Shown here piece after piece: positions 43,064 through 62,356 of a stretch of 64,000 bases of DNA. The position numbers and the translations under genes were made by a program. How positions within the stretch are numbered: the first letter of the stretch is position 1; each line of letters opens with the position of its first letter. Location of the stretch: positions 1-64,000 of the forward strand of contig JBBTCT010000022.1 of assembly GCA_038060895.1 (NCBI GenBank), given 5' to 3'. Source of the DNA: Planctomycetota bacterium. Lineage in GTDB: Bacteria; Planctomycetota; MHYJ01; WSZJ01. Below the pieces are notes generated by a model. It was not told where the DNA came from. It ran no database searches and was given only the letters and a program-made list of their open reading frames with translations.

Positions 43064-43127
43064 GGGCGGGAGGTCCCGCCCCACTGCTATCCCGGCTGCG
43101 AAACCGGGAGGGGATTTGATTCAGTGA
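43016..43127 (-). ncRNA. Candidate sigma54-dependent small RNA
   Basis: Upstream promoter motif, three consecutive hairpins, the last followed by UUUUUGUU. No ATG inside. Confidence 0.45.
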
Positions 43128-43137
43128 GGGCTCGCTC

Positions 43138-43153
43138 CGCAAATGCCGGGCCC
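43138..43153 (-). promoter_or_regulatory. Sigma54 promoter of the candidate sRNA
   Basis: Minus strand GGGCCCGGCATTTGCG (GG-N10-GC). Confidence 0.5.
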
Positions 43154-43270
43154 TCTTCCGCCGGGAAGCGACCCGCGGGGCGCCGTGTGATTCCGCGGAA
43201 TCTTCCCCGCACGCGGCGGACTATTTCCCATCCGGCGCCGATTCCCCCTGCGCAGGTCCACAAGCCGCCC

Positions 43271-43286
43271 CGGTCCCGGATTTGCG
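43271..43286 (+). promoter_or_regulatory. Sigma54 promoter of the oxidase operon
   Basis: CGGTCCCGGATTTGCG (GG-N10-GC, TTGC), 80 nt before 43367. Confidence 0.55.
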
Positions 43287-43366
43287 ATGCCGCTCTCTGA
43301 CAATTCCACAGCTGCGCAGGACAGTCCCCGCGCGAGCACCATCAACTCCTGGAGGGCTCTTCCATC

Positions 43367-44167: not shown

Positions 44168-44171
44168 CCGG

Positions 44172-44993: not shown

Positions 44994-45115
44994 CACTTCG
45001 ACTCGCCATGCGGGCTCTCTCGGGGCAGGGCCATTCCGTCGGGAAGGGCAATTCCTGAGTTCGTCGCGCCGTTCGAAGTTTTCAGCGGGATGCAGGACAG
45101 ATAGGGAGAAGCAAC

Positions 45116-46861: not shown

Positions 46862-46863
46862 GC

Positions 46864-47424
46864 ATGCTGATGAAAATCGAAGCGTGGGGAAGGGAAGAGA
46901 GGGACTCGGCGGAGCTGCCGGAGTCGGTGCGGGCTGAGACGTGGCAGACGCTCACGTACCTGATGATTGCCGGCGGGATCATGCTGTTCACGACGTTCAC
47001 GGCCTCGTACCTGGTGCGGCGGCAGAGTCCCGACTGGGCTCCGGTGCGGTTGCCCGCGCTCGTCTGGGCGAATCTCGCGGTGGTCGGCCTGGCGAGCGTC
47101 ACGATGGAACTGGCCCGTCGCGGCCGCGCCTCGGCTCGCCCGTGGCTGGGTGCGACGATCGGGCTAGGCCTGCTCTTTGTCGCCGGACAGGCCCTGGCCT
47201 GGCGCCAGCTCGCGGCCCAGGGAGTGTTCTTGACGACTTCGCCGCAGGCCTCTTTCTTCTACATGCTCACCGCCGTGCACGCGGCGCACGTCGCGGCAGG
47301 GCTCGCCGTGCTCCTGGCCGCGTTGCGGCGCGCCGGCACGAAGCCGCTCGGCCTGTGCGCCGCCTGGTGGCACTTCGTCGGCGCCGCCTGGGCCTGGGTC
47401 GTGATGCTGCTGAACTTCTTCTAG
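46864..47424 (+). CDS. coxC: Heme-copper oxidase subunit III-like (first copy)
   Basis: FFYMLTAVHAAHV, WWHFVG, multi-TM. Confidence 0.85.
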   Translation: MLMKIEAWGREERDSAELPESVRAETWQTLTYLMIAGGIMLFTTFTASYLVRRQSPDWAPVRLPALVWANLAVVGLASVTMELARRGRASARPWLGATIGLGLLFVAGQALAWRQLAAQGVFLTTSPQASFFYMLTAVHAAHVAAGLAVLLAALRRAGTKPLGLCAAWWHFVGAAWAWVVMLLNFF

Positions 47425-47427
47425 GGG

Positions 47428-48048
47428 ATGGCGATGAACCCGACCGCTGTGACGGGGCATGAAGCGGCGTCCGAGGAATCGGAACCCGGTTTCTACGGGA
47501 CGTCGTGGCAGAAGCTGATGATGTGGTGGTTCATCATCGGGGATGCCATCCTCTTCGGCAGTTTCCTCGCCGCCTACGGCTTCGCCCGCATCTCCGCCGG
47601 GAGCTGGCCCGACCGGACGCAGATGTTCAGCATGAACTTCATCACGGTGATGACGTTCACCCTCATCACCTCCAGCGCGACCATGGCCACCGCCGTCGCC
47701 GCTTCCCGCCGCGGCGACCGCAAGGCAGCCTTCAACTTCACGATGGCCACGGCCATCGGAGGCATCGCCTTTCTCGGGATGCAGGCGTACGAGTGGTACC
47801 ACCTGATCCACAACGGCGCGCGCATGGGCACCAACCCCTGGGGCGCCCCCGCGTTCGGCGCGTACTTCTTCACGATCACCGGCTTCCACGGCTCCCATGT
47901 CGCCTCCGGCGTGCTGATCCTGCTCATCACCGCGTGGAATGCGAAGCGCGGGAAGAGCGGACCCGAGGGCGTCGAGCTCACAGGGTTGTACTGGCACTTC
48001 GTCGACCTCGTCTGGGTATTCGTCTTCGGCTGCTTCTACCTCATCTAG
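47428..48048 (+). CDS. coxC: Heme-copper oxidase subunit III-like (second copy)
   Basis: KLMMWWFI, FFTITGFHGSHV, GLYWHFVDLVWVFVF. Confidence 0.9.
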   Translation: MAMNPTAVTGHEAASEESEPGFYGTSWQKLMMWWFIIGDAILFGSFLAAYGFARISAGSWPDRTQMFSMNFITVMTFTLITSSATMATAVAASRRGDRKAAFNFTMATAIGGIAFLGMQAYEWYHLIHNGARMGTNPWGAPAFGAYFFTITGFHGSHVASGVLILLITAWNAKRGKSGPEGVELTGLYWHFVDLVWVFVFGCFYLI

Positions 48049-48056
48049 GACGCGAC

Positions 48057-48323
48057 ATGAGCGACACCCACCCGGAAGCGAGCTACAGGTCGTACTGGAT
48101 TGCCTGGGGAATCCTGCTGGTCCTGACCCTGGTGATGATCTCGATTTCGAGCAAGGCGCTCCTGCTCGGCGGGATCCTGGTGAAGTCCGTCATCATCGGG
48201 GCGTGGTTCATGCACCTGAAGCACGAGCGCGCGATCCTGATCTGGAGCGTGATCGCGGGAGTCCTGTTCGCAGGGTTCCTGTTCTTCCTGATCTCGTTCG
48301 ACGCGGGGGTGTCGGTCCTGTGA
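48057..48323 (+). CDS. Oxidase subunit IV (CoxD/CtaF-like)
   Basis: WGILLVLT, KSVIIGAWFMHLKHE. Confidence 0.85.
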   Translation: MSDTHPEASYRSYWIAWGILLVLTLVMISISSKALLLGGILVKSVIIGAWFMHLKHERAILIWSVIAGVLFAGFLFFLISFDAGVSVL

Positions 48324-48605: not shown

Positions 48606-49004
48606 TTGCGCGTCGCCATTCCGGTCACGACAGGCCAGATTCCCAATCACCTGGGCCACTGCACCTCGTTTCTCTTCGCCGACGTGGAAGAGGGCCGCGT
48701 GCTGCGCGAAGAGCTCCTTCCCAATCCCGGCCACGGCCCCGGGGGCCCTCCGCCCGCCTTCCTGGCCCGCAGCGGCGTGACGCACCTGCTGGCTTGGGGA
48801 TGCCCGCCTCCCGCCCTTGAGATGTTCGACGAGGTCGGGATCAAAGTCGCGCTCGGCGCGACGGGGGACGCGAAGGCTGCCCTGCGCGCCTGGCTCGAAG
48901 GGACCCTGAAGCCCGTTTCCGATGGCCTGGACGCCGGAGGCGGGTGCGGCCCGAGCTCTTTGGATGAGGGAAAGGTGCGCGGAGGATGCGCCGGCGGCCA
49001 TTGA
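48606..49004 (+). CDS. NifB/NifX-like (FeMo-co biosynthesis domain) protein
   Basis: RVAIP...HLGHCTSF, NPGH, C-terminal GGC...CAGGH. TTG start with AGGAG. Confidence 0.82.
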   Translation: MRVAIPVTTGQIPNHLGHCTSFLFADVEEGRVLREELLPNPGHGPGGPPPAFLARSGVTHLLAWGCPPPALEMFDEVGIKVALGATGDAKAALRAWLEGTLKPVSDGLDAGGGCGPSSLDEGKVRGGCAGGH

Positions 49005-50724
49005 GTTTCTCAGCCGCGCCGGCTTCCTGCGCGTTGTCCCCACACCCGAGGAGATCGAAGCCCTGTCACCGAAGCGCCGGAAAAAAGTCCTCCTGACCAG
49101 CGTGTGCCGCCCCCTTGGGGAAAGCGCCGGGGACTCCCCGAGCGTAGGCTACGAACTCCTCCACTGCCAGGTCACCCGCGCCCAGGGCATCTTCAGCCCC
49201 CGGTCTCACCACATTCACTTCTCCCTCGAGTACATCGCGCAGAATCTCGAAGCGCCGACGGTGGTGCTTCAGTACCCGTCGAAGCGCGAACTGATCCGTG
49301 AGCTCAGGAAGGGCTATGACGTCGTCGGGGTGTCCTTCGTCATGCCGACTTTTCACCGGATGAAGGAGGTCGTCGCCCTCATTCGGGCGCACTCGCCCGA
49401 CGCGCAGATCGTTCTCGGCGGCTACGGAACTGTCCTCGGGGAGCAGGTCCTGCGGCCGTGGTGCGACCACATTTGCCGCGAGGAGGGCGTCGGGTTCATG
49501 CGCCGTCTCCTTGGCGAGACGGAGATTCCGCTTCCGTACGACCACCCGATGATCGTCAACCCGCTCCGGGTTTTCGGAAAGCAGGTCGGGCGGACGGGAA
49601 TCGTGTTCGGCGGGCTGGGTTGCCCGCACGGTTGCGATTTCTGCTGCACTTCTCATTTCTTCGCCCGCAAACACATTCGCCTTCTTCCCACCGGTGCGGA
49701 CATCTACGGCGTGATCCGGCGGTACCTCGACGTGGATCCGAACATGTCGATCCTCGTGATCGACGAGGATTTCCTCCTGAACCGCAAGAGGGCCATGGAA
49801 CTGCGCGAGTGCGTGCAGGCGGGCGGCGTTCCGCTGAGCATCTTCGTGTTCGCGAGCATCAAGGCGCTCACCCAGTACTCGGTGACGGAAATCATGGAAA
49901 TGGGAATCGACGGGATGTGGATCGGCTATGAAGGGACGCGCTCGGGGTACTCCAAGCAGCAGGGACGGCCCGTGGGGGATATCTTCCGCGAGTTTCGCGC
50001 GCATGGGATCAGCATCCTGGCGTCGATGATCGTCGGATTCCCCTACCAGACGCCGGAGATCATTGAGGAAGAGCTGACGGGGCTTCTCGATCTGCACCCT
50101 GACCTGGGGCAATTCCTGATCTACGGCCCGTCCCCCGGGACGCCGTTCTACGAATCCGTCAAAAAGCAGGGGCTGTTCCACCAGGAGTACGTCGATGACC
50201 CCGAGCTGTACTACAAAAAAGCCAGCGGCTTCTTCTCCATGGTCCGGCATCCGACGATGTCCGCCGGCCAGATCGAGGCCGAACAGAGACGTTGCTTCGA
50301 CGAGGACTTCCGCCGTCTCGGCCCTTCGATCTTTCGCGCGCTTGAAACCTGGCTTCTGGGCCATCTGAAGCTGAAAGACTCTCCCAGCGCCTACCTGCGC
50401 GCGAAGGCGGCCAGTTTCGCCGCGGACTTGCGCAGGTCCTACCCCGTCTTTCTCGCCGGCCGCCTGCTCGGCCCGAACCGGAAGGTCCGCCGCTGGATCG
50501 GCGAGCTGGAAGCGCGAATCCACGCCGCGCTGGGAAAGCCGACACTTCTGGAGCGCGTGCAATCCGTGGCGGCGATCGGTGCGGCGGCGTGGACGGGAAT
50601 CAAACTCAAGCTGGGGCTGTTCCAGCACGTGCCGCTGAAGCGCGGCGAGTGGCGGATGGAAGAGACCCGTCGGTCCCTGTCGGCGCCCTCACCCGAAGTC
50701 CGCGTCGCCGCAGGGACGCCCTAG
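48964..50724 (+). CDS. Cobalamin-binding radical SAM protein
   Basis: B12-type N-domain (DVVGVSF, IVLGGYG, GCPHGCDFC as the CxxxCxxC motif, IDEDF, IGYEG, PGTPFY). Start uncertain (48922 to about 49000). Confidence 0.85.
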   Translation: MRERCAEDAPAAIEFLSRAGFLRVVPTPEEIEALSPKRRKKVLLTSVCRPLGESAGDSPSVGYELLHCQVTRAQGIFSPRSHHIHFSLEYIAQNLEAPTVVLQYPSKRELIRELRKGYDVVGVSFVMPTFHRMKEVVALIRAHSPDAQIVLGGYGTVLGEQVLRPWCDHICREEGVGFMRRLLGETEIPLPYDHPMIVNPLRVFGKQVGRTGIVFGGLGCPHGCDFCCTSHFFARKHIRLLPTGADIYGVIRRYLDVDPNMSILVIDEDFLLNRKRAMELRECVQAGGVPLSIFVFASIKALTQYSVTEIMEMGIDGMWIGYEGTRSGYSKQQGRPVGDIFREFRAHGISILASMIVGFPYQTPEIIEEELTGLLDLHPDLGQFLIYGPSPGTPFYESVKKQGLFHQEYVDDPELYYKKASGFFSMVRHPTMSAGQIEAEQRRCFDEDFRRLGPSIFRALETWLLGHLKLKDSPSAYLRAKAASFAADLRRSYPVFLAGRLLGPNRKVRRWIGELEARIHAALGKPTLLERVQSVAAIGAAAWTGIKLKLGLFQHVPLKRGEWRMEETRRSLSAPSPEVRVAAGTP

Positions 50725-51967: not shown

Positions 51968-52646
51968 CCGCGGCGCGATCGTCACCGGCGGCGCTTCGGG
52001 AATCGGCGCCTGCGCCTCGAAAGCGCTCGAGAGCGAGGGCTACGTCGTCTGCCGCGTCGATCTCGCGGAGCCCGGGGACGTGCTGGGGGACGTGCGCGCC
52101 GAAGGGACGGCGCGGCGGGCGCTCGACTGGCTCCGGGAGAAGGGGACCGGACCGGACGTGCTGGTGAACTGCGCCGGGATCACGCGCGGCGCGGCGATGC
52201 CGAAGCTGACGCAGGAGGACTGGGATCTCGTCATCGGGGTGGACCTGACCGGGGCGTTCGTGTTCACGAAGGCGGTCTCGCCCGTGATGGCGGAGCGCGG
52301 CGGCGGCCGGATCGTGAACGTCGCTTCGACGCTTGCGCTGCGCGCGCGACGAGGGACGGCGGCGTACGCGGCGGCGAAGGCGGGGTTGCTCGGGTTCACG
52401 CGAGCCTGCGCGCGCGACCTCGGGCCGAAGAACATCAACGTCAACGCGGTTGCGCCGGGGCTCGTGCTGACGCGGTTGGCGGACGAGATCCCGGCGGAGA
52501 CGCGAGAGAAGCTGCTCGCGGAGACCGCGCTGGGCCGCTTTGCCACCCCGGAGGACGTCGCGGGAGTGATCGTCTTTCTCTGCTCGCCTGCTGCGCGCCA
52601 TGTCACGGGCGAAACCATCCGCGTCGATGGAGGACAACTCGCATGA
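51948..52646 (+). CDS. Short-chain dehydrogenase (FabG/BzdZ-like)
   Basis: TGGASGIG, VNCAG, YAAAK, VNAVAPG, VDGG. Confidence 0.9.
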   Translation: MSSKPADRGAIVTGGASGIGACASKALESEGYVVCRVDLAEPGDVLGDVRAEGTARRALDWLREKGTGPDVLVNCAGITRGAAMPKLTQEDWDLVIGVDLTGAFVFTKAVSPVMAERGGGRIVNVASTLALRARRGTAAYAAAKAGLLGFTRACARDLGPKNINVNAVAPGLVLTRLADEIPAETREKLLAETALGRFATPEDVAGVIVFLCSPAARHVTGETIRVDGGQLA

Positions 52647-53401
52647 GCCTGGTGACCGTCGTCCGGCAGGATCACATCGTGACCTGCTCGATTGGCAACC
52701 CGCCGCTCAACATCCTCACCTGCGCGGTCATGAACGAACTCTGCGCCGCCCTCCGGGAGACGCGGCCGGACGACCGCGTCATCGTCATCCGGGGAGCGGG
52801 AAAGCACTTTTGCGCTGGCGCCGACATTGCCGAGCACCTGCCGGAGAAGGGGCCCGCGATGCTCGAGACGCTCGGGAGGCTGTTCACCACGCTGAACGAC
52901 GTCCCCGTCCCCACGGTGGCCGTCGTGCGCGGAGCATGCATGGGCGCGGGGCTGGAGCTCGCCGCCGCCTGCGATTTCATCATCGCCGCGGAGGACGCAA
53001 AACTCGGCGTCCCGGAAATCTCGCTGGGCGTCGTCGCCCCGGTCGCCTCGGTCGACCTGCCGCGGAAAATCGGCGAAACGCGGGCCGCGGAACTTCTCTT
53101 CCTCGGCAAACCCATCTCCGGCCGGCAGGCGGGGGAGTGGGGCCTGGCCGTCGAGGTCGCGGTGGAAGCGGATCTCGACGCCCGCGCCGACATCCTGGCC
53201 GCGAAACTCGCGGCCCACTCCGGAGCAGCGCTTCGATCCACGAAGCGTTGCCTGCGCGCGGCGGGGGCAAGGCCTGTTCATGCGGACGCGCTTTCCGCGG
53301 CGCTTGGCATCTACAAGGCGGACGTCCTGCCGAGCGCGGACGGCCTGGAGGGGTTGAAGGCGTTCCTGGAGAAGCGGCAGGCCAAGTGGAGGGACCAGTG
53401 A
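52643..53401 (+). CDS. dch: Cyclohexa-1,5-diene-1-carbonyl-CoA hydratase (Dch-like)
   Basis: PPLNIL, HFCAGADIAEHLP, GLELAAACD, PEISLGVVAP, EGLKAFLEKR. Operon context. Confidence 0.8.
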   Translation: MSLVTVVRQDHIVTCSIGNPPLNILTCAVMNELCAALRETRPDDRVIVIRGAGKHFCAGADIAEHLPEKGPAMLETLGRLFTTLNDVPVPTVAVVRGACMGAGLELAAACDFIIAAEDAKLGVPEISLGVVAPVASVDLPRKIGETRAAELLFLGKPISGRQAGEWGLAVEVAVEADLDARADILAAKLAAHSGAALRSTKRCLRAAGARPVHADALSAALGIYKADVLPSADGLEGLKAFLEKRQAKWRDQ

Positions 53402-54423
53402 TGAAAGCGGCTGTCTACTATGCGGGCGCGAAAGGTCTCGAGATCAAGGACGTCCCGGTTCCCGAGCCGGCGCCCGGGGAAGCGCGGGTGAAGGTGGCCG
53501 CGTGCGGGCTCTGCCATACGGACCTGCACTATCTCGACCATGGCGTCCCGACGTTCAAGAAGCCGCCGATCATCCTGGGGCACGAGCCCGCGGGTCATGT
53601 GGACGCGCTGGGCGCCGGGGTGACGAACGTGAAGCCGGGCCAGGCCGTGCTCGTCCCGGCGGTTCTCACCTGCGGCGAGTGCACCCTCTGCCGGACGGGC
53701 CGGTCGAACATCTGCGAGCGGATGCAGATGCTCGGGAACCACATTGACGGAGCGTTCGCGGAGTTCGTGTGCGTCCGCGCGCGCGACCTGGTTCCGCTTC
53801 CCGCCGGGCTCGATCCCGTGGAAGCCTCGATCGTGGCCGACGCGGTGACGACGGCGTTTCACGCGGTCGTGCACAGGGCGCAGGTCCGGCCCGGCGAGAC
53901 GGTGGCGATTTTCGGGTGCGGCGGAGTGGGTCTGTCGGCGGTGCAGTTCGCGGCGCTGGCCGGCGCCTACGTCATCGCCGTGGATCTTGACCCGGCGAAA
54001 CTCCTGCTGGCGCGCCAGCTGGGCGCCGCCGACACGGTCGATGCGAAGGCGGATCCCGAGCCCGCGAAGACGATCAAGAAGAAGACTGGCGGCGGCGTGG
54101 ACAAGGCGATGGAGTGCATCGGCAGCCCGAAAGTCATCCCCGTGGCGCACAACTCCGTCCGCGCCGGGGGCCGGCTGGTCATCGTCGGGTTCGCCGACAA
54201 GCCGGTCGAACTCAATGCGGGGAAGATCATGTTCATGGAGCAGGAGGTCATCGGGTCCCTCGGTTGCCGGCCCGTGGATTTCCCGCGGGTCCTCGAAATG
54301 TGCGCCTCCGGCCGCTACAAGCTTGCTCCGCTCGTGACCTCGAGGCGCCCGCTCGAGCGCGTGAACGAAGCGCTGGACGAATTGAGAGCGGGAAAGAGCG
54401 TGAGAAGCGTCGTCATCCCCTGA
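53401..54423 (+). CDS. had: 6-hydroxycyclohex-1-ene-1-carbonyl-CoA dehydrogenase (Had-like, Zn-ADH)
   Basis: CGLCHTDL, GHE, VPAVLTCGECTLC, GNHIDG, VADAVTT, GCGGVG, GSLGC. Operon context. Confidence 0.8.
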   Translation: MKAAVYYAGAKGLEIKDVPVPEPAPGEARVKVAACGLCHTDLHYLDHGVPTFKKPPIILGHEPAGHVDALGAGVTNVKPGQAVLVPAVLTCGECTLCRTGRSNICERMQMLGNHIDGAFAEFVCVRARDLVPLPAGLDPVEASIVADAVTTAFHAVVHRAQVRPGETVAIFGCGGVGLSAVQFAALAGAYVIAVDLDPAKLLLARQLGAADTVDAKADPEPAKTIKKKTGGGVDKAMECIGSPKVIPVAHNSVRAGGRLVIVGFADKPVELNAGKIMFMEQEVIGSLGCRPVDFPRVLEMCASGRYKLAPLVTSRRPLERVNEALDELRAGKSVRSVVIP

Positions 54424-55146: not shown

Positions 55147-55165
55147 TAGTAAATGCCATTAAATA
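55147..55165. promoter_or_regulatory. Palindromic operator, copy 3
   Basis: TAGTAAA-TGCCA-TTAAATA between the divergent aldolase and DUF1800 genes. Confidence 0.72.
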
Positions 55166-55224
55166 AATGGAAACCTTCGGGGCCCAGCCGGGTTTCCATC
55201 CCGGACGCCCTTCGGAGAACCCCG

Positions 55225-56712
55225 ATGCCCAATCCCCTCGCCCCGGTCACTACCTCTTCGTGGGACCGCTCCCGCGCCCGTCACCTCCTCAACCGCGCCG
55301 GTTTCGGGATCCCGCTTCATGAGGTAGATCGCCTCGCCGCCATGTCCCCTGAGGCCGCGGTCGCCCGCTTCGTCGAATTTGAGGCGCGCCCCGACTGGTT
55401 CCAGCCCCCCGACTTCCTCCCGGCACCGTTTGATTTCGCCGCAAAGCGCCGCGAAGTCGCCGGCCTCACCGAAGAAGAACGCAAGGATCTCTTCAAGGAA
55501 CGCATGCGCGAGGAACACCAGGCAATGGCGCAACTCCAGGACTGGTGGCTCGACCAGATGCTCACCACGCTTCAGCCCCTCCAGGCCAAGCTCACCCTGT
55601 TCTGGCACGGCCACTTCGCCACGTCCGCCCAGAAAGTAAAGTCCTGCCGCAACAACTGGCAGCTCTTCCAGGTGTTCCGCGAAAAGGCTGCAGGGAGTTT
55701 CCGGGAACTGGTCCGCAGCGTCGGGAAGTCGCCCGCCATGCTCGAGTACCTCGACAACGAGAAGAACAAGAAGGGGCACCCGAACGAGAACTGGGCCCGC
55801 GAGCTGATGGAGCTGTTCACGATGGGGCGCGGGAACTACACGGAGGACGACATCAAGGAAGCGGCGCGCGCATTCACGGGGTGGATGCGCGTCGGCGAGA
55901 AGTTCTGGTTCAACGCGCACGCGCACGACGACGGCGTGAAGACGGTCCTGGGCCGGAAGGGCGACTTCGACGGCGACCAGGTTGTGGACATCGTCGTGGA
56001 GAACCCCGCCACGGCGAAGTTCGTGGCGAAGAAGATGTGGGAGTTCTTCGCGTACGAGGAGCCCGAGACTGAGGTCGTCGAAGGGCTCGCGCGTGTTTTC
56101 ACGGAGGCGAAATTCGAGCTCAAGCCGCTTCTCCGGGCGATGTTTCTCTCGGAGGCGTTCTACTCGCCGCGCTCCGTTGGGAACCAGGTCAAGAGCCCGG
56201 TGCAGCTGGTGCTCGGGCTTCTGGACGGCCTGGACGTCCCGCTGGCGCTGGAGTCGGGGCGGTTCGCGCGGCTCATCCTGACCGGGCTGGGGCAGGATCT
56301 GTTCCACCCGCCGAACGTGAAGGGGTGGCCGGGGAACCGCGCGTGGATCGACACGAACACGCTGCTGCTGCGCTGCAACGCGGCGGGAATTCTCGTCAAC
56401 GGGCTCGACCCGGAAGACATGGCGGGAGGCGAGGGGGAGGGGGCGCGCCGGCGCGGGTTGCCGCGGCGGATCCGGTCGCCGTTCGAGGCGATGAAGTGGG
56501 CGGGGCGGCGGATGGCAGGGGCGAAGACGGCGGAGGAGGCGGCGGACCGTGTGACGGAGATCCTGCTGGGCCGCAGGCCGACGGCAGAGCAGCGCACCGT
56601 GCTGGCGCGCGCGCTGGGCGCCGGGACGGGGCAGGCCTGGAAAGCGAACGAGGATGGGGTGCGCGCGGTCGTGCACCTCGTGACGTCGATGGCGGAATAC
56701 CAACTCTGTTAG
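55225..56712 (+). CDS. DUF1800 family protein
   Basis: HLLNRAGFG, LFWHGHFATS, AMLEYLD, PNENWARELMELFTMG, AARAFTGW, PPNVKGW, EYQL. Confidence 0.92.
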   Translation: MPNPLAPVTTSSWDRSRARHLLNRAGFGIPLHEVDRLAAMSPEAAVARFVEFEARPDWFQPPDFLPAPFDFAAKRREVAGLTEEERKDLFKERMREEHQAMAQLQDWWLDQMLTTLQPLQAKLTLFWHGHFATSAQKVKSCRNNWQLFQVFREKAAGSFRELVRSVGKSPAMLEYLDNEKNKKGHPNENWARELMELFTMGRGNYTEDDIKEAARAFTGWMRVGEKFWFNAHAHDDGVKTVLGRKGDFDGDQVVDIVVENPATAKFVAKKMWEFFAYEEPETEVVEGLARVFTEAKFELKPLLRAMFLSEAFYSPRSVGNQVKSPVQLVLGLLDGLDVPLALESGRFARLILTGLGQDLFHPPNVKGWPGNRAWIDTNTLLLRCNAAGILVNGLDPEDMAGGEGEGARRRGLPRRIRSPFEAMKWAGRRMAGAKTAEEAADRVTEILLGRRPTAEQRTVLARALGAGTGQAWKANEDGVRAVVHLVTSMAEYQLC

Positions 56713-56713
56713 C

Positions 56714-56772
56714 GCCCTTCGACTCGCCCTTCGGGCTCGACCACTCTGAGCGAGCGGAGCGAGTCGAAGGGC
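56714..56772. repeat. REP-like palindrome
   Basis: Perfect 14-bp arms GCCCTTCGACTCGC / GCGAGTCGAAGGGC. Confidence 0.7.
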
Positions 56773-56785
56773 TCAGGAGGTTTTG

Positions 56786-58015
56786 ATGTCCACGAACAAC
56801 GTCGTCTTCACCCGTCGCGAGTTCATGCGGACGTCGGCTGTCGTCAGCGCGGGGCTGACGCTTCCCGCATTCCTCACCGGATGGCGTGGCCTCGCGCAGG
56901 CTGAGGAACCCGGCGCGGGCGGGCGCATCCTCGTCGTCCTGCAGTTGGGAGGCGGCAATGACGGGCTGAACACGCTCGTCCCGTACACGGACGACGCCTA
57001 CCGCCGCGCGCGGCCGACGCTCGGTCTGGCGAAGGAGCGCGTGCTCGACATCGACGGCCGCTTCGGCTTCAACGATTCGCTCGCGGCTATTAAAGGCCTC
57101 TTCGACGACGGGAAAGTCGCCGTCGTCCACGGCGTCGGCTACCCCAACCCCGACCGGTCACACTTCCGCTCCATGGACATCTGGCACACCGCCTCTGACT
57201 CGGACCGCTACGAGACGACGGGCTGGCTCGGGAGGTACTTCCACAACTGCTGCGGCGGGAAGCCGGACCCCGTGACCGGGGTGAATGTGGGGGCGAAGAT
57301 GCCGATGGCGTTTGCGGGAAGCGACGTGGGGGTCTCCTTCACGAACCCGGCGTGGTTCCGGTGGCTGCCGGGGGACGGGGCGGACACGGAGAAGGCGTAC
57401 CGGGAGCTGAACGCGGGGAAGGGTGAGGGGACGCTCGACTACCTGCGGTCGGTTTCGGCGAGCGTGGTGGCGACTTCGGACAAGGTGCAGGCGGTGGCGC
57501 GGAAGCGGCGCGCGGCGGGGGAGTATCCGCAGAGCCGGTTCGCGGACGACCTGAAGACGGTCGCGAACATGATCCTGGGTGGGCTGCCGGCGCGGGTTTA
57601 CTACGTGTCGATGACGGGGTTCGACACGCACGCGGGGCAGGCGGGGACGCAGGATCGGCTGCTGAAGGAGTTCGCGGAGGGGGTGAAGGCGTTCCACGGC
57701 GACCTGGCGAAGGCCGGGGCTGCGGAGCGCGTGCTGATGATGAGCTTCAGCGAATTCGGCCGCCGGGTGGAGCAGAACGCCAGCGGCGGAACCGATCACG
57801 GGACGGCGGGGCCGATGTTCGTGATCGGGGAAGGGGCGTTGCCGGGGCTCAAGGGGACGCCGCCGAAGCTGACGGACCTGGAGCAGGGGGACCTGAAGCA
57901 CACGGCGGACTTCCGCGCGGTGTACGGCGAGGTCGTGTCGCGGTGGCTCGGGGGGGACGCGAAGCAGGTGCTCGGGCGCGACCTGCAGCCCCTGGGGGTC
58001 GTGCGGGCGGTGTAA
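56786..58015 (+). CDS. DUF1501 family protein, Tat signal
   Basis: TRREFM, QLGGGNDGLN, RSHFRS, GWLGR, FDTH, SEFGRR, GTDHG, DFR. Confidence 0.92.
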   Translation: MSTNNVVFTRREFMRTSAVVSAGLTLPAFLTGWRGLAQAEEPGAGGRILVVLQLGGGNDGLNTLVPYTDDAYRRARPTLGLAKERVLDIDGRFGFNDSLAAIKGLFDDGKVAVVHGVGYPNPDRSHFRSMDIWHTASDSDRYETTGWLGRYFHNCCGGKPDPVTGVNVGAKMPMAFAGSDVGVSFTNPAWFRWLPGDGADTEKAYRELNAGKGEGTLDYLRSVSASVVATSDKVQAVARKRRAAGEYPQSRFADDLKTVANMILGGLPARVYYVSMTGFDTHAGQAGTQDRLLKEFAEGVKAFHGDLAKAGAAERVLMMSFSEFGRRVEQNASGGTDHGTAGPMFVIGEGALPGLKGTPPKLTDLEQGDLKHTADFRAVYGEVVSRWLGGDAKQVLGRDLQPLGVVRAV

Positions 58016-58056
58016 ATCCCCCGGAATTCCGAAACGCGGGGGCACCCGCAGCTATA

Positions 58057-58075
58057 TAGTTAATCACCTTAACTA
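58057..58075. promoter_or_regulatory. Palindromic operator, copy 4 (perfect arms)
   Basis: TAGTTAA-TCACC-TTAACTA, about 50 nt before the Nod-like gene. Confidence 0.8.
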
Positions 58076-58123
58076 ACGGGGCGCCTTCCGGCGCTCCGTC
58101 CGCCCTCCAGACAGGAGCCTTCC

Positions 58124-60535
58124 ATGAACATCGCCCGATGGCTTGACCGCCGCGAATCCTGGTGGAAGGTCTTCGTCGTCATCTTCGCAGTCAGCGTCAC
58201 CGTCGTCGGCTACATCGGGTACAAGACCTACCAGTACGCCCCGCCGGTCTGCGACTTCGTGGACGAGTCCGGCAAGACCGTCTTCTCCGGCGCCGACATC
58301 ACCGCGGGCCAGAAGGTCTTCCTCCGCTACGGCCTCATGGAATACGGCTCCTTCCTCGGCGACGGCGCCATGCGCGGGCCCGACTTCACCGCGGAGGCGC
58401 TTCACCAGACCGCCCTCTCCATGAACGCGCAGTACGACGCCGAGTGGAGCGTCCGTATCCCCGACCTGGTGCAGCGCAAGGCGATCGTCGAAGCGCTCGT
58501 GCAGAAGGACATCAAGGAGAACCGCTTCAAGGACGGCAAAGTCACGGTGAACGCGGCGCAGGCGGCGGCGTTTGAGCGCCTGCGGCTGTATTACTCGCAG
58601 AAATTCGGGGCCGGCGGCGAACTGGCGGGGAAGGAAGTCTTCAAACCGGAGAACTACATCACCGACCAGGAGAAAATCCGGCACCTCACGGCGTTTTTCT
58701 ACTGGGGAGGCTGGCTCTGCTCTGCCAAACGCCCCGGCTACGAGTACAGCTACACGCACAACTGGCCGTACGACCCGCTGGCGGGGAACGTCCCGCACGG
58801 CGGTCTCGTGATGTGGAGCGTGATCGGAACGCTGGTCGTGATCCTGACGATCGGCGTGATCTTCTACTACTACGGGCGAATGGACCGGGAAGCGGTGCTC
58901 GAGCAGCAGAAGGCGCACCTGCCGCCGCTCGCGACGTCGGATGTGGTGGACCGGTTCAAGCCGACGCCGACGCAGCGCGCGACCTACAAGTTCTTCGCGG
59001 TGGCCGCGCTCCTGTTCCTTTTCCAGGTCACTGCGGGCCTGCTCGCGATCTCGGATTTCGTGAATCTCGTGAGCTGGTTCGGGTTCGACCTGCGGGCGGC
59101 GATCCCCGTCACGATTTCGCGCATGTGGCACTCGCAGTTCTCGGTCCTGTGGATCGCGGTCTGCTGGTTCGCGGCGACGATCTGGGTGATGCCGCTCATC
59201 TGCCGCCCCGAACCTCGCGGCCAGCTCGGCTCGATCAACCTGCTTTTCGCCATGCTGGCGACCGTCGCGGCCGGCGCCATCTTCGGCATTCCCCTCGGCA
59301 TCCACGGCAAGCTCGACTACGGCGACGCGTGGCGCTGGTTCGGCCTGCAGGGCTGGGAGTTCATGCAGATCGGACGAGCGTTCCAGGCCGTGCTCTACTC
59401 GTCCTTCGTCCTCTGGCTCGTGATCATCACCCGCGGCGTCTGGCCCGCGCTCAAGCAGAAGCAGACCTGGTCGCTCCCCAACTGGATGGTCTACTCGATC
59501 GCCGGCATCATTTTCATGTTCAGCGCGTCGTGGGTCGCCAGCCCGGACACCAACTTCGTCATCGCCGACTTCTGGCGCTGGTGCACGATCCACATGTGGG
59601 TCGAAGCGTTCTTCGAGTTGTTTACGACGATCATCGTCGCCTACTTCCTCTACCTCATGGGGTTCGTGTCGCACCTCGTCGCGGCGCGCGTCGTGTACCT
59701 GTCGGCCGTGCTGTTCCTCGGAAGCGGCATGATCGGGATTTCGCACAACTTCTACTGGAACGCGAAGTCGATTGAGACGATCGCGCTCGGCGGCGTCCTC
59801 TCGTCGCTCCAGGTCGCGCCGCTCGTCCTGCTCACGATCGAGGCGTGGCGCTTCCGCCACCTTCCGCAGCACTCGCTCCGCGGCTCCACCCAGACGTTCG
59901 GCCTCGGGGAAGCCTTCCTCTTCCTCGTCGGCGTCAACTTCTGGAACTTCCTCGGCGCCGGCGTGATGGGATTCATGATCAACCTGCCGATCGTGAACTA
60001 CTACCAGCACGGGACGTACCTCACCGTCAACCACGGCCACGCCGCCCTCATGGGCGTCTACGGCAACCTAGCCGTCGCCGCCATGCTCTTCTGCTCCCGC
60101 TGGAACGTCGGCCCGTCTCGCTGGAACGCGAAGCTCCTGCGCACGTCGTTCTGGTCGCTCAACGCCGGCCTCATGTTCATGGTCGTCTTCGATCTCTTCC
60201 CGGTCGGCATCCACCAGCTCGCCGCGGCCATGAACCATGGCTACGCCTACGCGCGCTCGCAGGAGTACCTGTCCGGCACCGTCTTCCAGACCCTGACCTG
60301 GCTCCGTGGCATCGGCGTCGCGGTCTTCGTCACCGGCGGGGTCCTCCCGCTCACGTGGTTCATGGTCACTCGCTGGTTCAACCTCAAGCCGCCCCAGACG
60401 CGCGAAGAGCAGTTCATCGTGCCGCCCTCCGTCCTCGCCGTCTCCAGCCCGAGCGTCCTTACCGCCCGCGGCGTGCCGGACCGGGAGCCCGAAGGCGCCG
60501 GCTTGCTGCGCGACCCGGGGAAGGATCCGCTGTGA
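58124..60535 (+). CDS. nod: qNOR paralog with NO dismutase (Nod)-type substitutions
   Basis: qNOR scaffold (GSFLGDGAMRGPDFTAEALH, SYTHNWPYDP, QGWEF, HMWVE, NHGHAA) with ISHNFYW (HH to HN), SSLQV (E to Q) and no quinol-site His/Asp. Confidence 0.82.
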   Translation: MNIARWLDRRESWWKVFVVIFAVSVTVVGYIGYKTYQYAPPVCDFVDESGKTVFSGADITAGQKVFLRYGLMEYGSFLGDGAMRGPDFTAEALHQTALSMNAQYDAEWSVRIPDLVQRKAIVEALVQKDIKENRFKDGKVTVNAAQAAAFERLRLYYSQKFGAGGELAGKEVFKPENYITDQEKIRHLTAFFYWGGWLCSAKRPGYEYSYTHNWPYDPLAGNVPHGGLVMWSVIGTLVVILTIGVIFYYYGRMDREAVLEQQKAHLPPLATSDVVDRFKPTPTQRATYKFFAVAALLFLFQVTAGLLAISDFVNLVSWFGFDLRAAIPVTISRMWHSQFSVLWIAVCWFAATIWVMPLICRPEPRGQLGSINLLFAMLATVAAGAIFGIPLGIHGKLDYGDAWRWFGLQGWEFMQIGRAFQAVLYSSFVLWLVIITRGVWPALKQKQTWSLPNWMVYSIAGIIFMFSASWVASPDTNFVIADFWRWCTIHMWVEAFFELFTTIIVAYFLYLMGFVSHLVAARVVYLSAVLFLGSGMIGISHNFYWNAKSIETIALGGVLSSLQVAPLVLLTIEAWRFRHLPQHSLRGSTQTFGLGEAFLFLVGVNFWNFLGAGVMGFMINLPIVNYYQHGTYLTVNHGHAALMGVYGNLAVAAMLFCSRWNVGPSRWNAKLLRTSFWSLNAGLMFMVVFDLFPVGIHQLAAAMNHGYAYARSQEYLSGTVFQTLTWLRGIGVAVFVTGGVLPLTWFMVTRWFNLKPPQTREEQFIVPPSVLAVSSPSVLTARGVPDREPEGAGLLRDPGKDPL

Positions 60536-60810
60536 AATGGTTTCCCTTCGGGCCCGCGGCGCAAGAGCCGGCGAAGAAACTCCCGGTCATCGACCGCGGT
60601 CTGTGCACGGGCTGCGGCCTGTGCCTCGCCGCCTGCACGAACGGCTGCCTCGCATTTTCGTGGAGCCTCGCCGACCTGAAGCGGCCCGAGTGCTGCACGA
60701 GCGAAGGGCATTGCGCGGCCGCCTGTCCCGATGGGTTCATCGAGATGAAGTGGGTCGCCGCAAAAGGGGAGCGCGGTATTGGTGAGTGGAGCGAAGGGGG
60801 AGTCGCATGA
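60532..60810 (+). CDS. Small dicluster ferredoxin
   Basis: CTGCGLCLAAC and CCTSEGHCAAACP. GTGA overlap with the Nod-like gene. Confidence 0.82.
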   Translation: MKWFPFGPAAQEPAKKLPVIDRGLCTGCGLCLAACTNGCLAFSWSLADLKRPECCTSEGHCAAACPDGFIEMKWVAAKGERGIGEWSEGGVA

Positions 60811-61187
60811 CCCCCGCGCGCGTTCTCCTGGAAGAAGCGCTCGCGCTTCTCCGACTCACGGAGGACGCGCCGCTCTCGGAGCGCATCGACGCCGGGGGGA
60901 TGGCCGTCGTCGCGCAGCATCGGGCCGAGGTTCGCCTTGGCGCAAGGCTGCCCGGATGGCCGGACGTCCGGAGCGAGCTTGCCGAACTTTTCGGCGCTCC
61001 TCCTTCCGCCGCCCCTGACTTCGCTTCGTGGCTCGCCGCCCTCCACGCCCGCCTCCGCCCTTCGCACCCGCAGGCCTTCGCCATCGCCCTCCTGCGCCTC
61101 AACGGCCTCGACGATGCGGGCATCGCCGCGCGCCTCGGCCTCGGCGCCCGCCTCGTCCGCCGGATCCGTCAGGACGTCCCATGCTAG
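60807..61187 (+). CDS. Short degenerate ECF sigma region-4/HTH protein
   Basis: IALLRLNGLDDAGIAARLGLGARLVRR resembles ECF region 4. Directly precedes a kinase. Confidence 0.5.
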   Translation: MTPARVLLEEALALLRLTEDAPLSERIDAGGMAVVAQHRAEVRLGARLPGWPDVRSELAELFGAPPSAAPDFASWLAALHARLRPSHPQAFAIALLRLNGLDDAGIAARLGLGARLVRRIRQDVPC

Positions 61188-62356
61188 TCACGCTCGCCAC
61201 CGCCGCCTGCGCCCGCGCCCCGAGAGCCGCCGGGAGATATCAGGCGTGGGCCGAAGCGCTTGGCTCCATCCGGGCGGATCCGTCGCCGGCCCGCGTGTCC
61301 GAGTTGCTTGCGACCATCCCCGAAGACCAGCGCGCCGACGCCCTGGTGGACCTCCTGTCCGAAGCGCTTCAGATCGCCTGGCGCCGCGCCCCCGCTCCGC
61401 CGCTCGCCGCGTGGCTCGACGCCATTGCGCCCGGTTTCGAACCGCCCGCCGATCTCGTGGAAGCGGAGTTCGTCGCCCGCCACCAGCCGCCGCACGGCGA
61501 TGCGCCGGCTCCCGCAGATTCCTCGCGCCTGCTCGCCGAGGGCCGCTTCATCCTGCTCCGCCGTCTGGGCCGAGGCGCGATGGGAGAGGTGTGGGAAGCG
61601 CGGGACACGGCCGCGGGCAGACTTGTCGCCATCAAGCGCTCGATCGACATGGGGATGGGGGATCGCCTGGAGTGCGAGCGGGAAGTCACTGCCGCGCTCG
61701 ATCACCCCGCCGTCCTCTCCATTCGAGAGATCGGGCGCGACCCGCAGGGCCGCCCCTTCGCGGTCATGCCTCTCGCCTCCGGCCCCAATTTTGACGAGAG
61801 CATCGCCGGCCTTCACCGGATCGCCGGCGACCCGCGGACCCTCCTCGCTCCGTTCCTCGCCGCCTGCGACGCGGTCGCCCATGCGCACTCCCGCGGCGTC
61901 CTGCACCGGGACCTTAAGCCCGCCCACATCGTCCCCGGCGCCGGCGTCCTCGACTGGGGCGTCGCGCGCCGAGCGTCCGCCCCCGACGGTCTCGTCGCGG
62001 GCACCCCCGAGTACATGGCTCCCGAGCAGGCCGACGGCCGCGCCGACGAACGAAGCGACGTCTTCGCGCTCGGCGGAGTTCTCTTTCACATTCTCACCGG
62101 CCGTCCTCCGCGCGCCTGGCCGGACGCGGTGCGACCCGCCTCGTGGGCCGAATTCGTACGCTCGGTACCACTGACCGTGCCAGGCGGATCGCATGCAGCC
62201 CTGCGGCGCGTCTGCCGGCAGGCGATGAACCCCGATCCGCGGGAACGGTTCCTTTCCGCAGGCGCATTCGCCGACCGGCTCCGTCGTTCGAGCGACGCCG
62301 CGCCGTCGTTCTGGCGGCACGTACTGGCCTGGGTGCAGGCCCCTGCCTGTTCATAG
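61181..62356 (+). CDS. Hanks-type Ser/Thr protein kinase
   Basis: LGRGAMGEV, VAIK, HRDLKPAH, DWG, GTPEYMAPEQ, SDVFALG. Confidence 0.9.
   Translation: MLVTLATAACARAPRAAGRYQAWAEALGSIRADPSPARVSELLATIPEDQRADALVDLLSEALQIAWRRAPAPPLAAWLDAIAPGFEPPADLVEAEFVARHQPPHGDAPAPADSSRLLAEGRFILLRRLGRGAMGEVWEARDTAAGRLVAIKRSIDMGMGDRLECEREVTAALDHPAVLSIREIGRDPQGRPFAVMPLASGPNFDESIAGLHRIAGDPRTLLAPFLAACDAVAHAHSRGVLHRDLKPAHIVPGAGVLDWGVARRASAPDGLVAGTPEYMAPEQADGRADERSDVFALGGVLFHILTGRPPRAWPDAVRPASWAEFVRSVPLTVPGGSHAALRRVCRQAMNPDPRERFLSAGAFADRLRRSSDAAPSFWRHVLAWVQAPACS

What the first reader, a model, noticed from the sequence alone, without database searches (positions are those of the whole stretch)
58124..60535. qNOR paralog with the full NO-dismutase signature
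Seen: the FeB ligand pair HH reads HN (ISHNFYW, 59744-59749), the catalytic-site Glu of SALEV reads Gln (SSLQV, 59810), the quinol-site AHY reads AIS, and the W.R..GD Asp reads WLRGIGV. Heme ligands are intact. Known: these substitutions define the putative Nod of Methylomirabilis oxyfera and HdN1. The HMWVEAFFE and HNFYWNAK wording, from recall, resembles the Nod-related group seen in Bacteroidota. Automated annotation would call it norB. Dismutase activity of the family is itself inferred rather than shown with pure enzyme.
Basis: partly seen in the sequence, partly recalled or inferred. Interest (0 to 1): 0.85.

Follow-up and report, generated by a model that had tools for sequence, protein, structure and literature searches.

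The report
Nod-family NO enzyme in a planctomycete
This gene encodes an intact relative of quinol nitric-oxide reductase that carries the substitutions used to define putative nitric oxide dismutases, but it is one more member of an already described, biochemically untested family and not a new kind of enzyme.

Summary
ORF 58124-60535 (+) encodes an 803-aa qNOR-type protein. Against the solved Geobacillus qNOR (3AYF, E 3e-140) it has H560->N, E581->Q, and the quinol residues H328/E332/D746 replaced by S/N/V. The heme ligands and H508/E512/H559 are kept. All 124 of 124 closest relatives share N and Q.

Two trees place it outside qNOR, inside the N/Q clade (100/100). It is not in the canonical Nod clade (HdN1, Methylomirabilota). 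It lies in the sister group, in a Planctomycetota/Verrucomicrobiota subclade (100/100) separate from the Bacteroidota group.

It is the only qNOR-family gene in this 86.5%-complete groundwater MAG. No NirS, NirK, NosZ, NarG or NrfA was found in the MAG, but two A-type oxidases were. The gene is under purifying selection.

Such Planctomycetota nod genes are already in print (Fuchsman 2017, Elbon 2024, Ruff 2024, Jiang 2025). Activity is still unproven for the whole family.

One extra finding: a conserved palindromic operator-like site upstream, shared with respiratory operons.

Verdict: new member of a known kind, moderate interest.

The parts
58124..60535 (+). CDS of the Nod-family (qNOR-derived) protein, 803 aa
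   Evidence: PDB 3AYF E 3.3e-140 over residues 16-761; dN/dS 0.06-0.36 against 6 orthologs
58256..58771 (+). N-terminal periplasmic cytochrome c-like domain without heme c (aa 45-216)
   Evidence: PF22085 E 2.2e-46; no CXXCH in the protein
58979..60322 (+). Heme-copper-oxidase core (COX1 domain, aa 286-733)
   Evidence: PF00115 E 1.7e-40; same span found by the genome search
59051..59065 (+). Former quinol site: S310 (Gs H328) to N314 (Gs E332)
   Evidence: alignment; the column is variable in 124 relatives (S 54, A 32, G 25, others 13)
59129..59131 (+). H336, conserved His (Gs H355; low-spin heme ligand by homology)
   Evidence: 124 of 124 conserved; assignment recalled and by Ruff 2024 section 6
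59591..59605 (+). H490 and E494 (Gs H508, E512), retained non-heme-metal ligands in HMWVEAFFE
   Evidence: 124 of 124 each
59744..59749 (+). H541-N542: Gs H559 kept, Gs H560 replaced by Asn
   Evidence: N in 124 of 124; qNOR H 100%, N/Q clade N 100%
59810..59812 (+). Q563 in place of Gs E581
   Evidence: (Q in 124 of 124)
60032..60040 (+). H637 and H639 (Gs H651, H653), heme b3 / heme b ligands by homology
   Evidence: 124 of 124 each
60317..60319 (+). V732 in place of Gs D746 (quinol site)
   Evidence: V 92, I 16, A 9, T 7 of 124
58056..58076 (.). Palindromic operator-like site ATAGTTAATCACCTTAACTAA, core TTAAT-N3-NTTAA at 58060-58072, 52-64 nt upstream of the ATG
   Evidence: the core is present upstream of 5 of 7 orthologs, and the variant ATAAC-N3-GTTA(A/T) upstream of the other 2. 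It is rare genome-wide. Reversed-pattern control.
58113..58117 (+). Shine-Dalgarno-like AGGAG
   Evidence: read directly
55150..55162 (.). Second, one-mismatch copy of the site (TAAATGCCATTAA) ahead of the DUF1800-DUF1501 pair that precedes the gene
   Evidence: exact sites stand ahead of the orthologous DUF1800 in G002 and G003
55153..58015 (+). DUF1800 (55153-56712, true start possibly 55226) and TAT-signal DUF1501 (56783-58015), upstream neighbours on the same strand
   Evidence: Pfam E 6e-116 and 3e-22; same gene order in G002 and G003

Best explanation
This is an intact, selected, single-copy gene for a membrane heme b/b3 enzyme of the NOD family, the qNOR-derived 'putative nitric oxide dismutases'.

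Shown here:
- It has qNOR architecture.
- It keeps both heme sites and three of the four ligands of the non-heme metal (2 His + Glu). The fourth ligand is Asn.
- The catalytic-site Glu is Gln.
- The three quinol-site residues are gone, and those columns drift freely within its subclade.
- It belongs to a Planctomycetota/Verrucomicrobiota subclade of the sister group of canonical Nod.

Inferred: with no quinol entry and a weakened proton path, it cannot run the 2e-/2H+ reduction of NO the way qNOR does. It most likely turns over NO without external electrons, as proposed for the family (2 NO -> N2 + O2).

In this host, an aerobic groundwater planctomycete in which no nitrite reductase or N2O reductase was found, NO would come from neighbouring cells. 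The enzyme would then serve NO removal, with any O2 released going to the host's own A-type oxidases.

Transcription probably starts at its own promoter, under a repressor or activator that binds a palindrome 52-64 nt upstream. That site is also found at respiratory-chain operons.
For: - Architecture and residues.
- Invariance of N542 and Q563, and of the heme and metal ligands, in 124 of 124 relatives. The quinol columns are variable.
- Only 2 of 20 full-length 50% representatives carry N+Q; 18 carry HH+E.
- Trees. Quick LG+C20 tree of 70 rows: N/Q clade SH-aLRT 100, canonical Nod 100, sister group 97, query subclade 100. Careful LG+G4 tree of 65 rows: 100/100, 100/100, 95/92, 100/100.
- Shared derived positions of the whole N/Q clade: H560N, E581Q, L509M, G565A, L472W, N230H.
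- Purifying selection: dN/dS 0.06-0.36. Native composition: gene 64.8% GC against genome 65.8%.
- Host genome. One qNOR-family gene. Two other COX1 genes, one in a COX2-COX1-COX3-COX4 operon 11 kb upstream. Nothing over the cut-off for NirK, NirS, NarG, NosZ clade II, cytochrome bd or NrfA.
- Five of 7 carriers among 41 relatives likewise show no NirS, NirK or NosZ.
- Operator-like site.
- Literature for the family hypothesis: PMC3413370, PMC11549561 (passages and section 6).
Against: - No NOD of any clade has been purified or assayed (PMC13386854 and PMC11549561, passages), so dismutation is a hypothesis for the entire family.
- The low-spin heme b ligands, E494 and E498 stay invariant. That is what one expects if electrons still reach the active site.
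- The query's group lacks 17 residues that are fixed in canonical Nod, and at 10 of them it keeps the state commonest among the 16 qNOR representatives (at least 50% of them at 8). It is the less derived branch and could have kept reductase chemistry.
- Fuchsman 2017 (PMC5723336, passages) argued from N2O profiles that such genes still make N2O.
- Two carriers have NosZ (G008, G019).
- The genome is 86.5% complete, so the missing nir and nos genes are 'not found', not absent.
- Transcription was not shown.
Confidence: 0.55

Rival explanations
1. It is still a nitric oxide reductase that makes N2O. Electrons would enter by a route other than the canonical quinol pocket: a different quinol site, or a periplasmic donor at the cytochrome c-like domain. 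The Asn/Gln changes would tune NO affinity or pH dependence and leave the chemistry unchanged.
For: - The low-spin heme ligands and E494/E498 are invariant in 124 of 124 relatives.
- At 10 of the 17 positions that separate the query's group from canonical Nod, the group keeps the state commonest among the 16 qNOR representatives.
- Fuchsman 2017 (PMC5723336, passages) found qnorB-like genes to be the only NOR candidates at an N2O maximum.
- NosZ is present in 2 of 7 carriers against 2 of 34 non-carriers among relatives. The numbers are small and the genomes are kin, not independent.
Against: - All three quinol-site residues are lost, and the columns are unconstrained.
- E581, implicated in catalysis and proton delivery, is Gln in every member.
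- Five of 7 carriers, this genome included, show neither a NO source nor NosZ.
- In G008, the one carrier with NirS, another heme-copper oxidase with a CuA-type subunit lies right beside nirS and is the likelier NOR.
Confidence: 0.3
2. It carries out some other NO-linked chemistry or role: dismutation to N2O + O2, as reported for an archaeon that lacks nod; NO binding or sequestration; or signalling to the respiratory chain.
For: - The altered metal site is unique to this family.
- The upstream site is shared with the cytochrome c/Mo-oxidoreductase and cox operons and with PFOR.
- Ruff 2024 (PMC11549561, passages) lists NO -> N2O + O2 as a known alternative stoichiometry.
Against: A full catalytic scaffold is kept under purifying selection across phyla, which fits an enzyme better than a sensor. 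There is no data for any alternative reaction in this family.
Confidence: 0.12
3. It is a decaying qNOR that has lost function.
For: Three classes of functional residues are replaced.
Against: - The frame is intact.
- dN/dS is 0.06-0.36.
- The same replacements are invariant in 124 of 124 relatives spread over several phyla.
- A conserved upstream site is present.
Confidence: 0.02

Closest known systems
Canonical putative NO dismutase (Nod) of Methylomirabilis oxyfera / gammaproteobacterium HdN1 (Ettwig et al. 2012)
   Same: - Same architecture.
- The same H->N and E->Q changes and the same loss of the quinol His, Glu and Asp.
- Additional shared derived residues L509M, G565A, L472W, N230H.
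- Together they form one clade apart from qNOR (100/100).
   Different: - Only 42-48% identical (HdN1 44%, a Methylomirabilota MAG 42%).
- It sits in the sister clade.
- It lacks 17 residues fixed in canonical Nod, e.g. HMWVEVTFE / HNFYWI in Nod against HMWVEAFFE / HNFYWN here.
- The host is not a methane or alkane oxidiser as far as seen, and no nirS was found.
'Planctomycetia-type Nod' / qnorB-like OTU I (Fuchsman 2017; Elbon 2024) and the Bacteroidota 'unknown Nor-related' / NOD subclades (Ruff 2024)
   Same: - The same non-canonical sister group (95/92).
- The HNFYWN wording is shared: subclade A 18 of 18, B 10 of 10, C 7 of 7.
- No consistent functional neighbourhood, as Elbon reports for the Planctomycetia type (section 5 read).
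   Different: - The named Scalindua japonica sequence (P0436) and the Bacteroidota sequences fall in other subclades (B, C), 48-50% identical to the query.
- They keep a His at the Gs H328 column (T[IV]HDF); the query's subclade does not.
- I could not see the published trees or supplementary tables, so I cannot say which published label covers the query's subclade.
Quinol-dependent NO reductase (qNOR/NorZ), e.g. PDB 3AYF
   Same: The fold, the fused cytochrome c-like domain without heme c, the heme ligands, and H508/E512/H559/E516.
   Different: H560N, E581Q, and the quinol residues H328/E332/D746 replaced. It is 34-41% identical to the qNOR representatives and phylogenetically outside them.

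Membership tests
NOD family (putative nitric oxide dismutase, sensu Ettwig 2012 / Ruff 2024) | qNOR-type architecture: N-terminal cytochrome c-like domain without heme c, fused to the heme-copper-oxidase core | tested here: met
   PF22085 + PF00115; 3AYF E 3.3e-140; no CXXCH
NOD family (putative nitric oxide dismutase, sensu Ettwig 2012 / Ruff 2024) | Heme ligands and two of the three His ligands of the non-heme metal retained | tested here: met
   H336, H637, H639, H490 and H541 present and invariant in 124 of 124 relatives
NOD family (putative nitric oxide dismutase, sensu Ettwig 2012 / Ruff 2024) | Third metal-ligand His replaced by Asn (Gs H560; M. oxyfera N564) | tested here: met
   N542
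NOD family (putative nitric oxide dismutase, sensu Ettwig 2012 / Ruff 2024) | Catalytic-site Glu replaced by Gln (Gs E581) | tested here: met
   Q563
NOD family (putative nitric oxide dismutase, sensu Ettwig 2012 / Ruff 2024) | No proper quinol-binding site (Gs H328, E332, D746) | tested here: met
   S310, N314, V732; the columns are variable in the subclade
NOD family (putative nitric oxide dismutase, sensu Ettwig 2012 / Ruff 2024) | Branches with NOD sequences and outside qNOR in a tree | tested here: met
   N/Q clade SH-aLRT 100 and 100/100, anchored by HdN1 (L087) and a Methylomirabilota MAG (L085)
NOD family (putative nitric oxide dismutase, sensu Ettwig 2012 / Ruff 2024) | Match to the curated NOD HMM of Murali et al. 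| not testable with these tools
   That HMM is not in any library offered here; NCBIfam gave no hit at all
NOD family (putative nitric oxide dismutase, sensu Ettwig 2012 / Ruff 2024) | Catalyses 2 NO -> N2 + O2 | not testable with these tools
   Not shown for any member (PMC13386854, PMC11549561, passages)
Canonical Nod subclade (M. oxyfera DAMO_2434/2437, HdN1) | Falls inside the clade that holds HdN1 and the Methylomirabilota sequences | tested here: not met
   The canonical clade (19 rows) is 100/100 and excludes the query, which lies in the sister group at 95/92. Canonical words HMWVEVTFE (19 of 19) and HNFYWI (18 of 19) are not present.
qNOR (quinol-dependent NO reductase) | FeB site of three His plus Glu, with the nearby catalytic Glu | tested here: not met
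   H560N and E581Q; all 18 HH-type representatives have HH and E
qNOR (quinol-dependent NO reductase) | Quinol-binding His/Glu/Asp | tested here: not met
   S310, N314, V732

The most novel reading that the evidence does not exclude
In this aerobic, apparently non-denitrifying groundwater planctomycete, the Nod-family gene may belong to a small regulon defined by one palindrome (TTAATGsCATTAA). That palindrome also sits at three other kinds of place: between the cytochrome c/Mo-oxidoreductase operon and the aa3-type oxidase operon, ahead of a pyruvate:ferredoxin oxidoreductase, and ahead of DUF1800-DUF1501 pairs. On this reading the enzyme is wired into the switch between oxic and hypoxic respiration. 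It would turn NO made by neighbouring cells into O2 for the host's own oxidases, a scavenger form of 'dark oxygen' production outside denitrifiers and methanotrophs.
Probability: 0.15. Interest if true: 0.7.

Novelty: new member of a known kind. Interest (0 to 1): 0.35.

Why it matters
Whether NOD-family enzymes really make O2 and N2 from NO is a long-standing open question. It bears on N2O emissions and on 'dark oxygen' in groundwater and oxygen-deficient waters.

This gene does not settle the question, and it is not the first of its kind in Planctomycetota. It does give a clean example of a subclade that has the full active-site signature and no trace of the quinol His, unlike the Bacteroidota and Scalindua japonica groups. 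It is also found mostly in genomes where no nir or nos gene was found. That makes the subclade a useful contrast case when homologs of each NOD subclade are expressed and assayed, as Ruff et al. 2024 call for.

The conserved upstream palindrome offers a handle for finding the regulator and its signal.

Tried and rejected
- NCBIfam gave no family for the protein.
- The Pfam nosZ propeller model PF18764 found nothing, but it also rang in none of the 14 control genomes. I did not use that answer and searched TIGR04246 instead.
- Transcription. Two RNA-library runs of one aquifer sample hold 100%-identical contig fragments of the gene. They hold the flanking genes at the same low depth, and a DNA run of the same study looks alike. 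Transcription is therefore not shown.
- The sigma-70 and terminator scan of 57800-61300 gave 0 promoter-like sites and 2 terminator-like sites against 1.8 expected.
- I considered that G008 (NirS + NosZ + the nod-like gene) shows the gene to be the NO-to-N2O step. I set this aside because another heme-copper oxidase with a CuA-type subunit lies directly beside nirS there.
- I considered recent horizontal transfer. Gene GC equals genome GC, and 4 of 7 other genomes of the genus carry orthologs, so there is no sign of it. The distribution is nevertheless patchy: 12 of 401 phylum genomes at 64% identity or more.
- I could not name the regulator of the palindrome. The adjacent ORFs I scanned gave no DNA-binding family.
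- Paper search was swamped by unrelated 'nod' terms.
- No paper in the held library reports a purified or structurally solved NOD. Subscription journals are not covered.
Ruff 2024 Supplementary Table 1 (GTDB NOD accessions), Fuchsman 2017 Fig. S10 and Jiang 2025 Supplementary Data 16 may already list this protein or its subclade.
- No structure was predicted, because the sequence match to solved qNORs already fixes the fold and the tool returns no coordinates.
Full report
**The gene.** The window holds an ATG-started ORF at 58124-60535 on the + strand, 803 aa. AGGAG lies 7-11 nt upstream of the start. Pfam finds the NorB cytochrome c-like domain (aa 45-216, E 2.2e-46) and the COX1 core (aa 286-733, E 1.7e-40). 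NCBIfam finds nothing. Against solved structures the best match is 3AYF, named 'Nitric oxide reductase' (E 3.3e-140, residues 16-761 on 27-774). Other qNOR entries follow at about 1e-114 and cNOR NorB at about 1e-21 to 1e-22. That 3AYF is the Geobacillus stearothermophilus enzyme is stated in Ettwig 2012 (passages).

**The residues.** In the 3AYF alignment:
- GIGHHYYYN reads GISHNFYWN (H560 -> N542).
- SALEV reads SSLQV (E581 -> Q563).
- D746 reads V732, H328 reads S310, and E332 reads N314.

H508, E512, E516 and H559 are kept, as are H355, H651 and H653. Its 'AHY reads AIS' is one residue out of register (AHY aligns to ISD), which does not change the meaning. There is no CXXCH.

**Is it more than chance?** In a MAFFT alignment of the query with its 123 closest database relatives (65-87% identical), N542, Q563 and all retained His/Glu are invariant, 124 of 124. 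The former quinol columns vary: S 54, A 32, G 25 and others 13 at one column; V 92, I 16, A 9, T 7 at another.

In the library of 50%-identity representatives, 3635 proteins matched at E up to 0.001. Of the 20 full-length ones among the best 150, only 2 (P0125 at 51% identity, P0126 at 42%) have N+Q. The other 18 have HH and E.

dN/dS against six orthologs is 0.06-0.36. Gene GC is 64.8% against 65.8% for the genome.

**Naming the groups.**
- A search with P0126 returned relatives that JGI calls 'nitric oxide dismutase' (2 of the 120 listed), plus MAGs of Magnetovibrio, Pseudomonadales, Myxococcota and Acidobacteriota.
- A scan of species genomes with an alignment of these (A1) gave 504 confirmed relatives, of which the best 80 were kept. 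They include gammaproteobacterium HdN1 (FP929140, L087), a Methylomirabilota MAG (L085) and Gammaproteobacteria NP964 (L012). All 14 of 14 loci I translated carry HNFYW.
- A search with P0125 returned Planctomycetes MAGs, the Scalindua japonica 'qNor', and Bacteroidota including Flavihumibacter fluvii and Ferruginibacter.

**Trees.** I built a tree of 70 rows:
- 18 of the query's near relatives (A), chosen from 124 for named or spread sequences;
- 10 of group B and 7 of group C, from the 120 listed;
- 19 canonical (D: 14 loci plus 5 proteins);
- 16 of the 18 HH/E full-length representatives (P0139, a 1089-aa fused form, and P0149 were left out).

With LG+C20 PMSF and a quick search, the N/Q clade (54 rows) has SH-aLRT 100, canonical Nod (19 rows, with HdN1 and Methylomirabilota) 100, its sister A+B+C (35 rows) 97, and the query's subclade A (18 rows) 100.

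I then dropped the five longest qNOR rows (P0144, P0145, P0146, P0151, P0153) and ran a careful LG+G4 search on the remaining 65 rows. This gave ultrafast bootstrap/SH-aLRT of 100/100, 100/100, 95/92 and 100/100, with B+C at 98/90. The root is on qNOR rows and was not inferred.

Identities fit the tree: 42-48% to canonical Nod loci (HdN1 44%), 48-50% to B and C representatives, and 34-41% to qNOR representatives.

**What separates the groups.**
- Six positions are shared and derived in the whole N/Q clade against qNOR: H560N and E581Q (both 100%), L509M, G565A, L472W and N230H.
- Seventeen positions separate A+B+C from canonical Nod. At 10 of them A+B+C keeps the state commonest among the 16 qNOR representatives, and at 8 of those that state is held by at least 50% of them. 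So the query's group is the less derived branch.
- The word HMWVEAFFE is found in A only (18 of 18). Bacteroidota have HMWAEAFFE (6 of 7) and B has HMWAECFFE (9 of 10). Canonical Nod has HMWVEVTFE (19 of 19).
- HNFYWN is common to A, B and C. Canonical Nod has HNFYWI (18 of 19).
- B and C keep a His at the Gs H328 column; A and D do not.

**The host.** The window is contig C22 of a 5.42-Mb, 47-contig assembly, 86.5% complete and 1.5% contaminated. The nearest named relative of the protein (87% identity) is from a 'Planctomycetia bacterium' MAG. The DNA is held by groundwater metagenomes.

The genome has one qNOR-family gene and two other COX1 genes. One of these sits in a COX2-COX1-COX3-COX4 operon at 44172-48323 of the window. 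That operon is divergent from a cytochrome c/EB_dh gene and a 1227-aa molybdopterin oxidoreductase on the minus strand.

Nothing reached the curated cut-offs for NirK, NirS, NarG, NosZ clade II, cytochrome bd or NrfA. In an incomplete genome this is 'not found'.

Neighbours of the gene are an ADH, a class II aldolase, DUF1800 and DUF1501 upstream, and a Ser/Thr kinase and a TPR protein downstream. None has a known NO link. This agrees with Elbon 2024 (section 5), which found no consistent neighbourhood for the Planctomycetia type.

**Distribution.** Among 40 relatives, orthologs at 73% identity or more are in 6: 4 of 7 in the same genus, 1 in the same order and 1 in the same class. Three others have 32-38% matches.

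Across the 41 genomes (G000 included), NirK over the cut-off is in 0. A full NirS is only in G008. NosZ clade II is in G008, G010, G019 and G022. So 5 of the 7 carriers show none of these.

G008 has 7 COX1-family matches. One of them, with a CuA-like subunit, lies next to nirS.

In an even sample of 401 genomes of the phylum, 80 have a match at E up to 1e-100:
- 12 (G000 included) at 64% identity or more;
- 14 at 46-54% as their best match;
- the remaining 54 at 40% or less as their best match.

These are identity bands only; I did not check the residues in those genomes.

**Upstream site.** The 108-bp spacer before the gene holds ATAGTTAATCACCTTAACTAA (58056-76) in otherwise GC-rich DNA. Five of 7 orthologous loci have TTAAT-N3-NTTAA at a similar distance, and the other 2 have ATAAC-N3-GTTA(A/T). 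Four of these loci have different upstream genes.

In the whole genome TTAA-N5-TTAA occurs 12 times, against 2, 5, 3 and 4 times for spacers of 3, 4, 6 and 7. Seven of the 12 read TTAAT...[AC]TTAA.

The other sites lie at:
- 42968, between the two respiratory operons;
- ahead of a cation-efflux gene;
- ahead of a pyruvate:ferredoxin oxidoreductase;
- ahead of another DUF1800;
- ahead of two ORFs without a family.

A one-mismatch copy stands at 55150-62, ahead of the DUF1800-DUF1501 pair.

In four genomes of the same genus the exact pattern occurs 2, 11, 9 and 6 times counting both strands. The reversed control gives 0 each. One genome of the order has 0 against 1. In the relatives the sites stand before orthologs of the nod-like gene (4 loci), both DUF1800 types (4 loci) and the cytochrome c/EB_dh gene (1 locus).

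The consensus is TTAATGsCATTAA. This looks like the operator of one regulator. Its identity and signal are unknown.

**Comparison with print.**
- Ettwig 2012 (PMC3413370, passages) defined putative NODs by the His-to-Asn and Glu-to-Gln changes and the lost quinol site.
- Schmitz 2023 (PMC10286720, passages) notes 'unknown qNor-related' clusters between nod and qNor.
- Fuchsman 2017 (PMC5723336, passages) found such qnorB-like genes abundant in an oxygen-deficient zone and argued that they may still make N2O.
- Elbon 2024 (bioRxiv 10.1101/2023.11.21.568154, abstract and section 5) names a 'Planctomycetia-type Nod' about 40% identical to the alphaproteobacterial type.
- Jiang 2025 (PMC11828985, passages) reports nod genes in Planctomycetota and Bacteroidota MAGs.
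[quoted passage not shown] It says homologs of each subclade need characterising.
- Murali's preprint (10.1101/2021.10.15.464467, passages) places the family next to qNOR.

**Verdict.** The gene is a bona fide member of the NOD family, in a Planctomycetota/Verrucomicrobiota subclade of the non-canonical sister group. It is not a member of the canonical M. oxyfera/HdN1 clade, and it is not a qNOR by the defining residues.

Its most likely role here is donor-independent turnover of exogenous NO in an aerobe. Dismutation is the leading hypothesis but remains unproven, and a donor-fed reductase is a serious rival.

It is a new member of a known kind. The conserved operator-like site, shared with respiratory operons, is the only element I did not find in the papers I read.

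Noticed in passing
window 36724-48323: Aerobic respiratory cluster. On the minus strand: a 623-aa multi-heme cytochrome c with an EB_dh domain (41149-43020) and a 1227-aa TAT-signal molybdopterin oxidoreductase (36724-40407). This may be an alternative-complex-III-like unit. It is divergent from a COX2-COX1-COX3-COX4 operon (44172-48323, +), which is preceded by a CarboxypepD_reg-domain protein (43367-44167).
   Followed up: partly
window 42968-42980, 55150-55162, 58060-58072; G000 C1:268259, C15:41610, C19:29371, C22:94798, C22:112789: A rare palindrome, TTAATGsCATTAA. It occurs 12 times as TTAA-N5-TTAA in 5.4 Mb, against 2-5 times for other spacings. It lies ahead of the nod-like gene, respiratory operons, PFOR, a CDF transporter and DUF1800 genes. 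It is conserved in the genus, and a reversed-pattern control gave 0 hits in the four genomes of that genus. The regulator is unknown.
   Followed up: partly
window 55153-58015; L123-L126 (G002, G003): The DUF1800-DUF1501 pair directly upstream of the nod-like gene keeps its order in two congeners and has its own copy of the palindrome. In G007 the nod-like gene is instead divergent from another DUF1800, with the site between them (L112).
   Followed up: partly
alignment (P0125, P0394-P0509): NOD subclades B (Scalindua japonica type) and C (Chitinophagales and other Bacteroidota) keep a His at the column of the qNOR quinol ligand H328 (T[IV]HDF). The query's subclade and canonical Nod do not. 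The subclades may therefore differ in how electrons enter.
   Followed up: partly
G008:C49:31546-37109: In a genome of the same order, a full nirS is followed by a CuA-like subunit and a heme-copper oxidase (230 bits to COX1). This could be one of the B-family-related NORs. The same genome also has NosZ clade II and the nod-like gene.
   Followed up: no
G019:C14:77304-79127 and 102439-104826: NosZ clade II and the nod-like ortholog lie about 23 kb apart on one contig, in a genome of the same class where no nirS or nirK was found.
   Followed up: no
L024 (contig titled uncultured Candidatus Scalindua sp.): A contig binned as Scalindua carries a canonical-type Nod, 74% identical to the gammaproteobacterial query and inside clade D. 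It is not the Scalindua-type sequence of subclade B. This suggests either transfer or a binning error.
   Followed up: no
window 52600-54423: A 607-aa ORF whose zinc-ADH domains occupy only residues 292-601. The first ~290 codons are probably an over-long reading in GC-rich DNA, or an unrecognised N-terminal part.
   Followed up: no
window 48922-50724: A B12-binding radical SAM protein (600 aa), between the cox operon and an enoyl-CoA hydratase.
   Followed up: no
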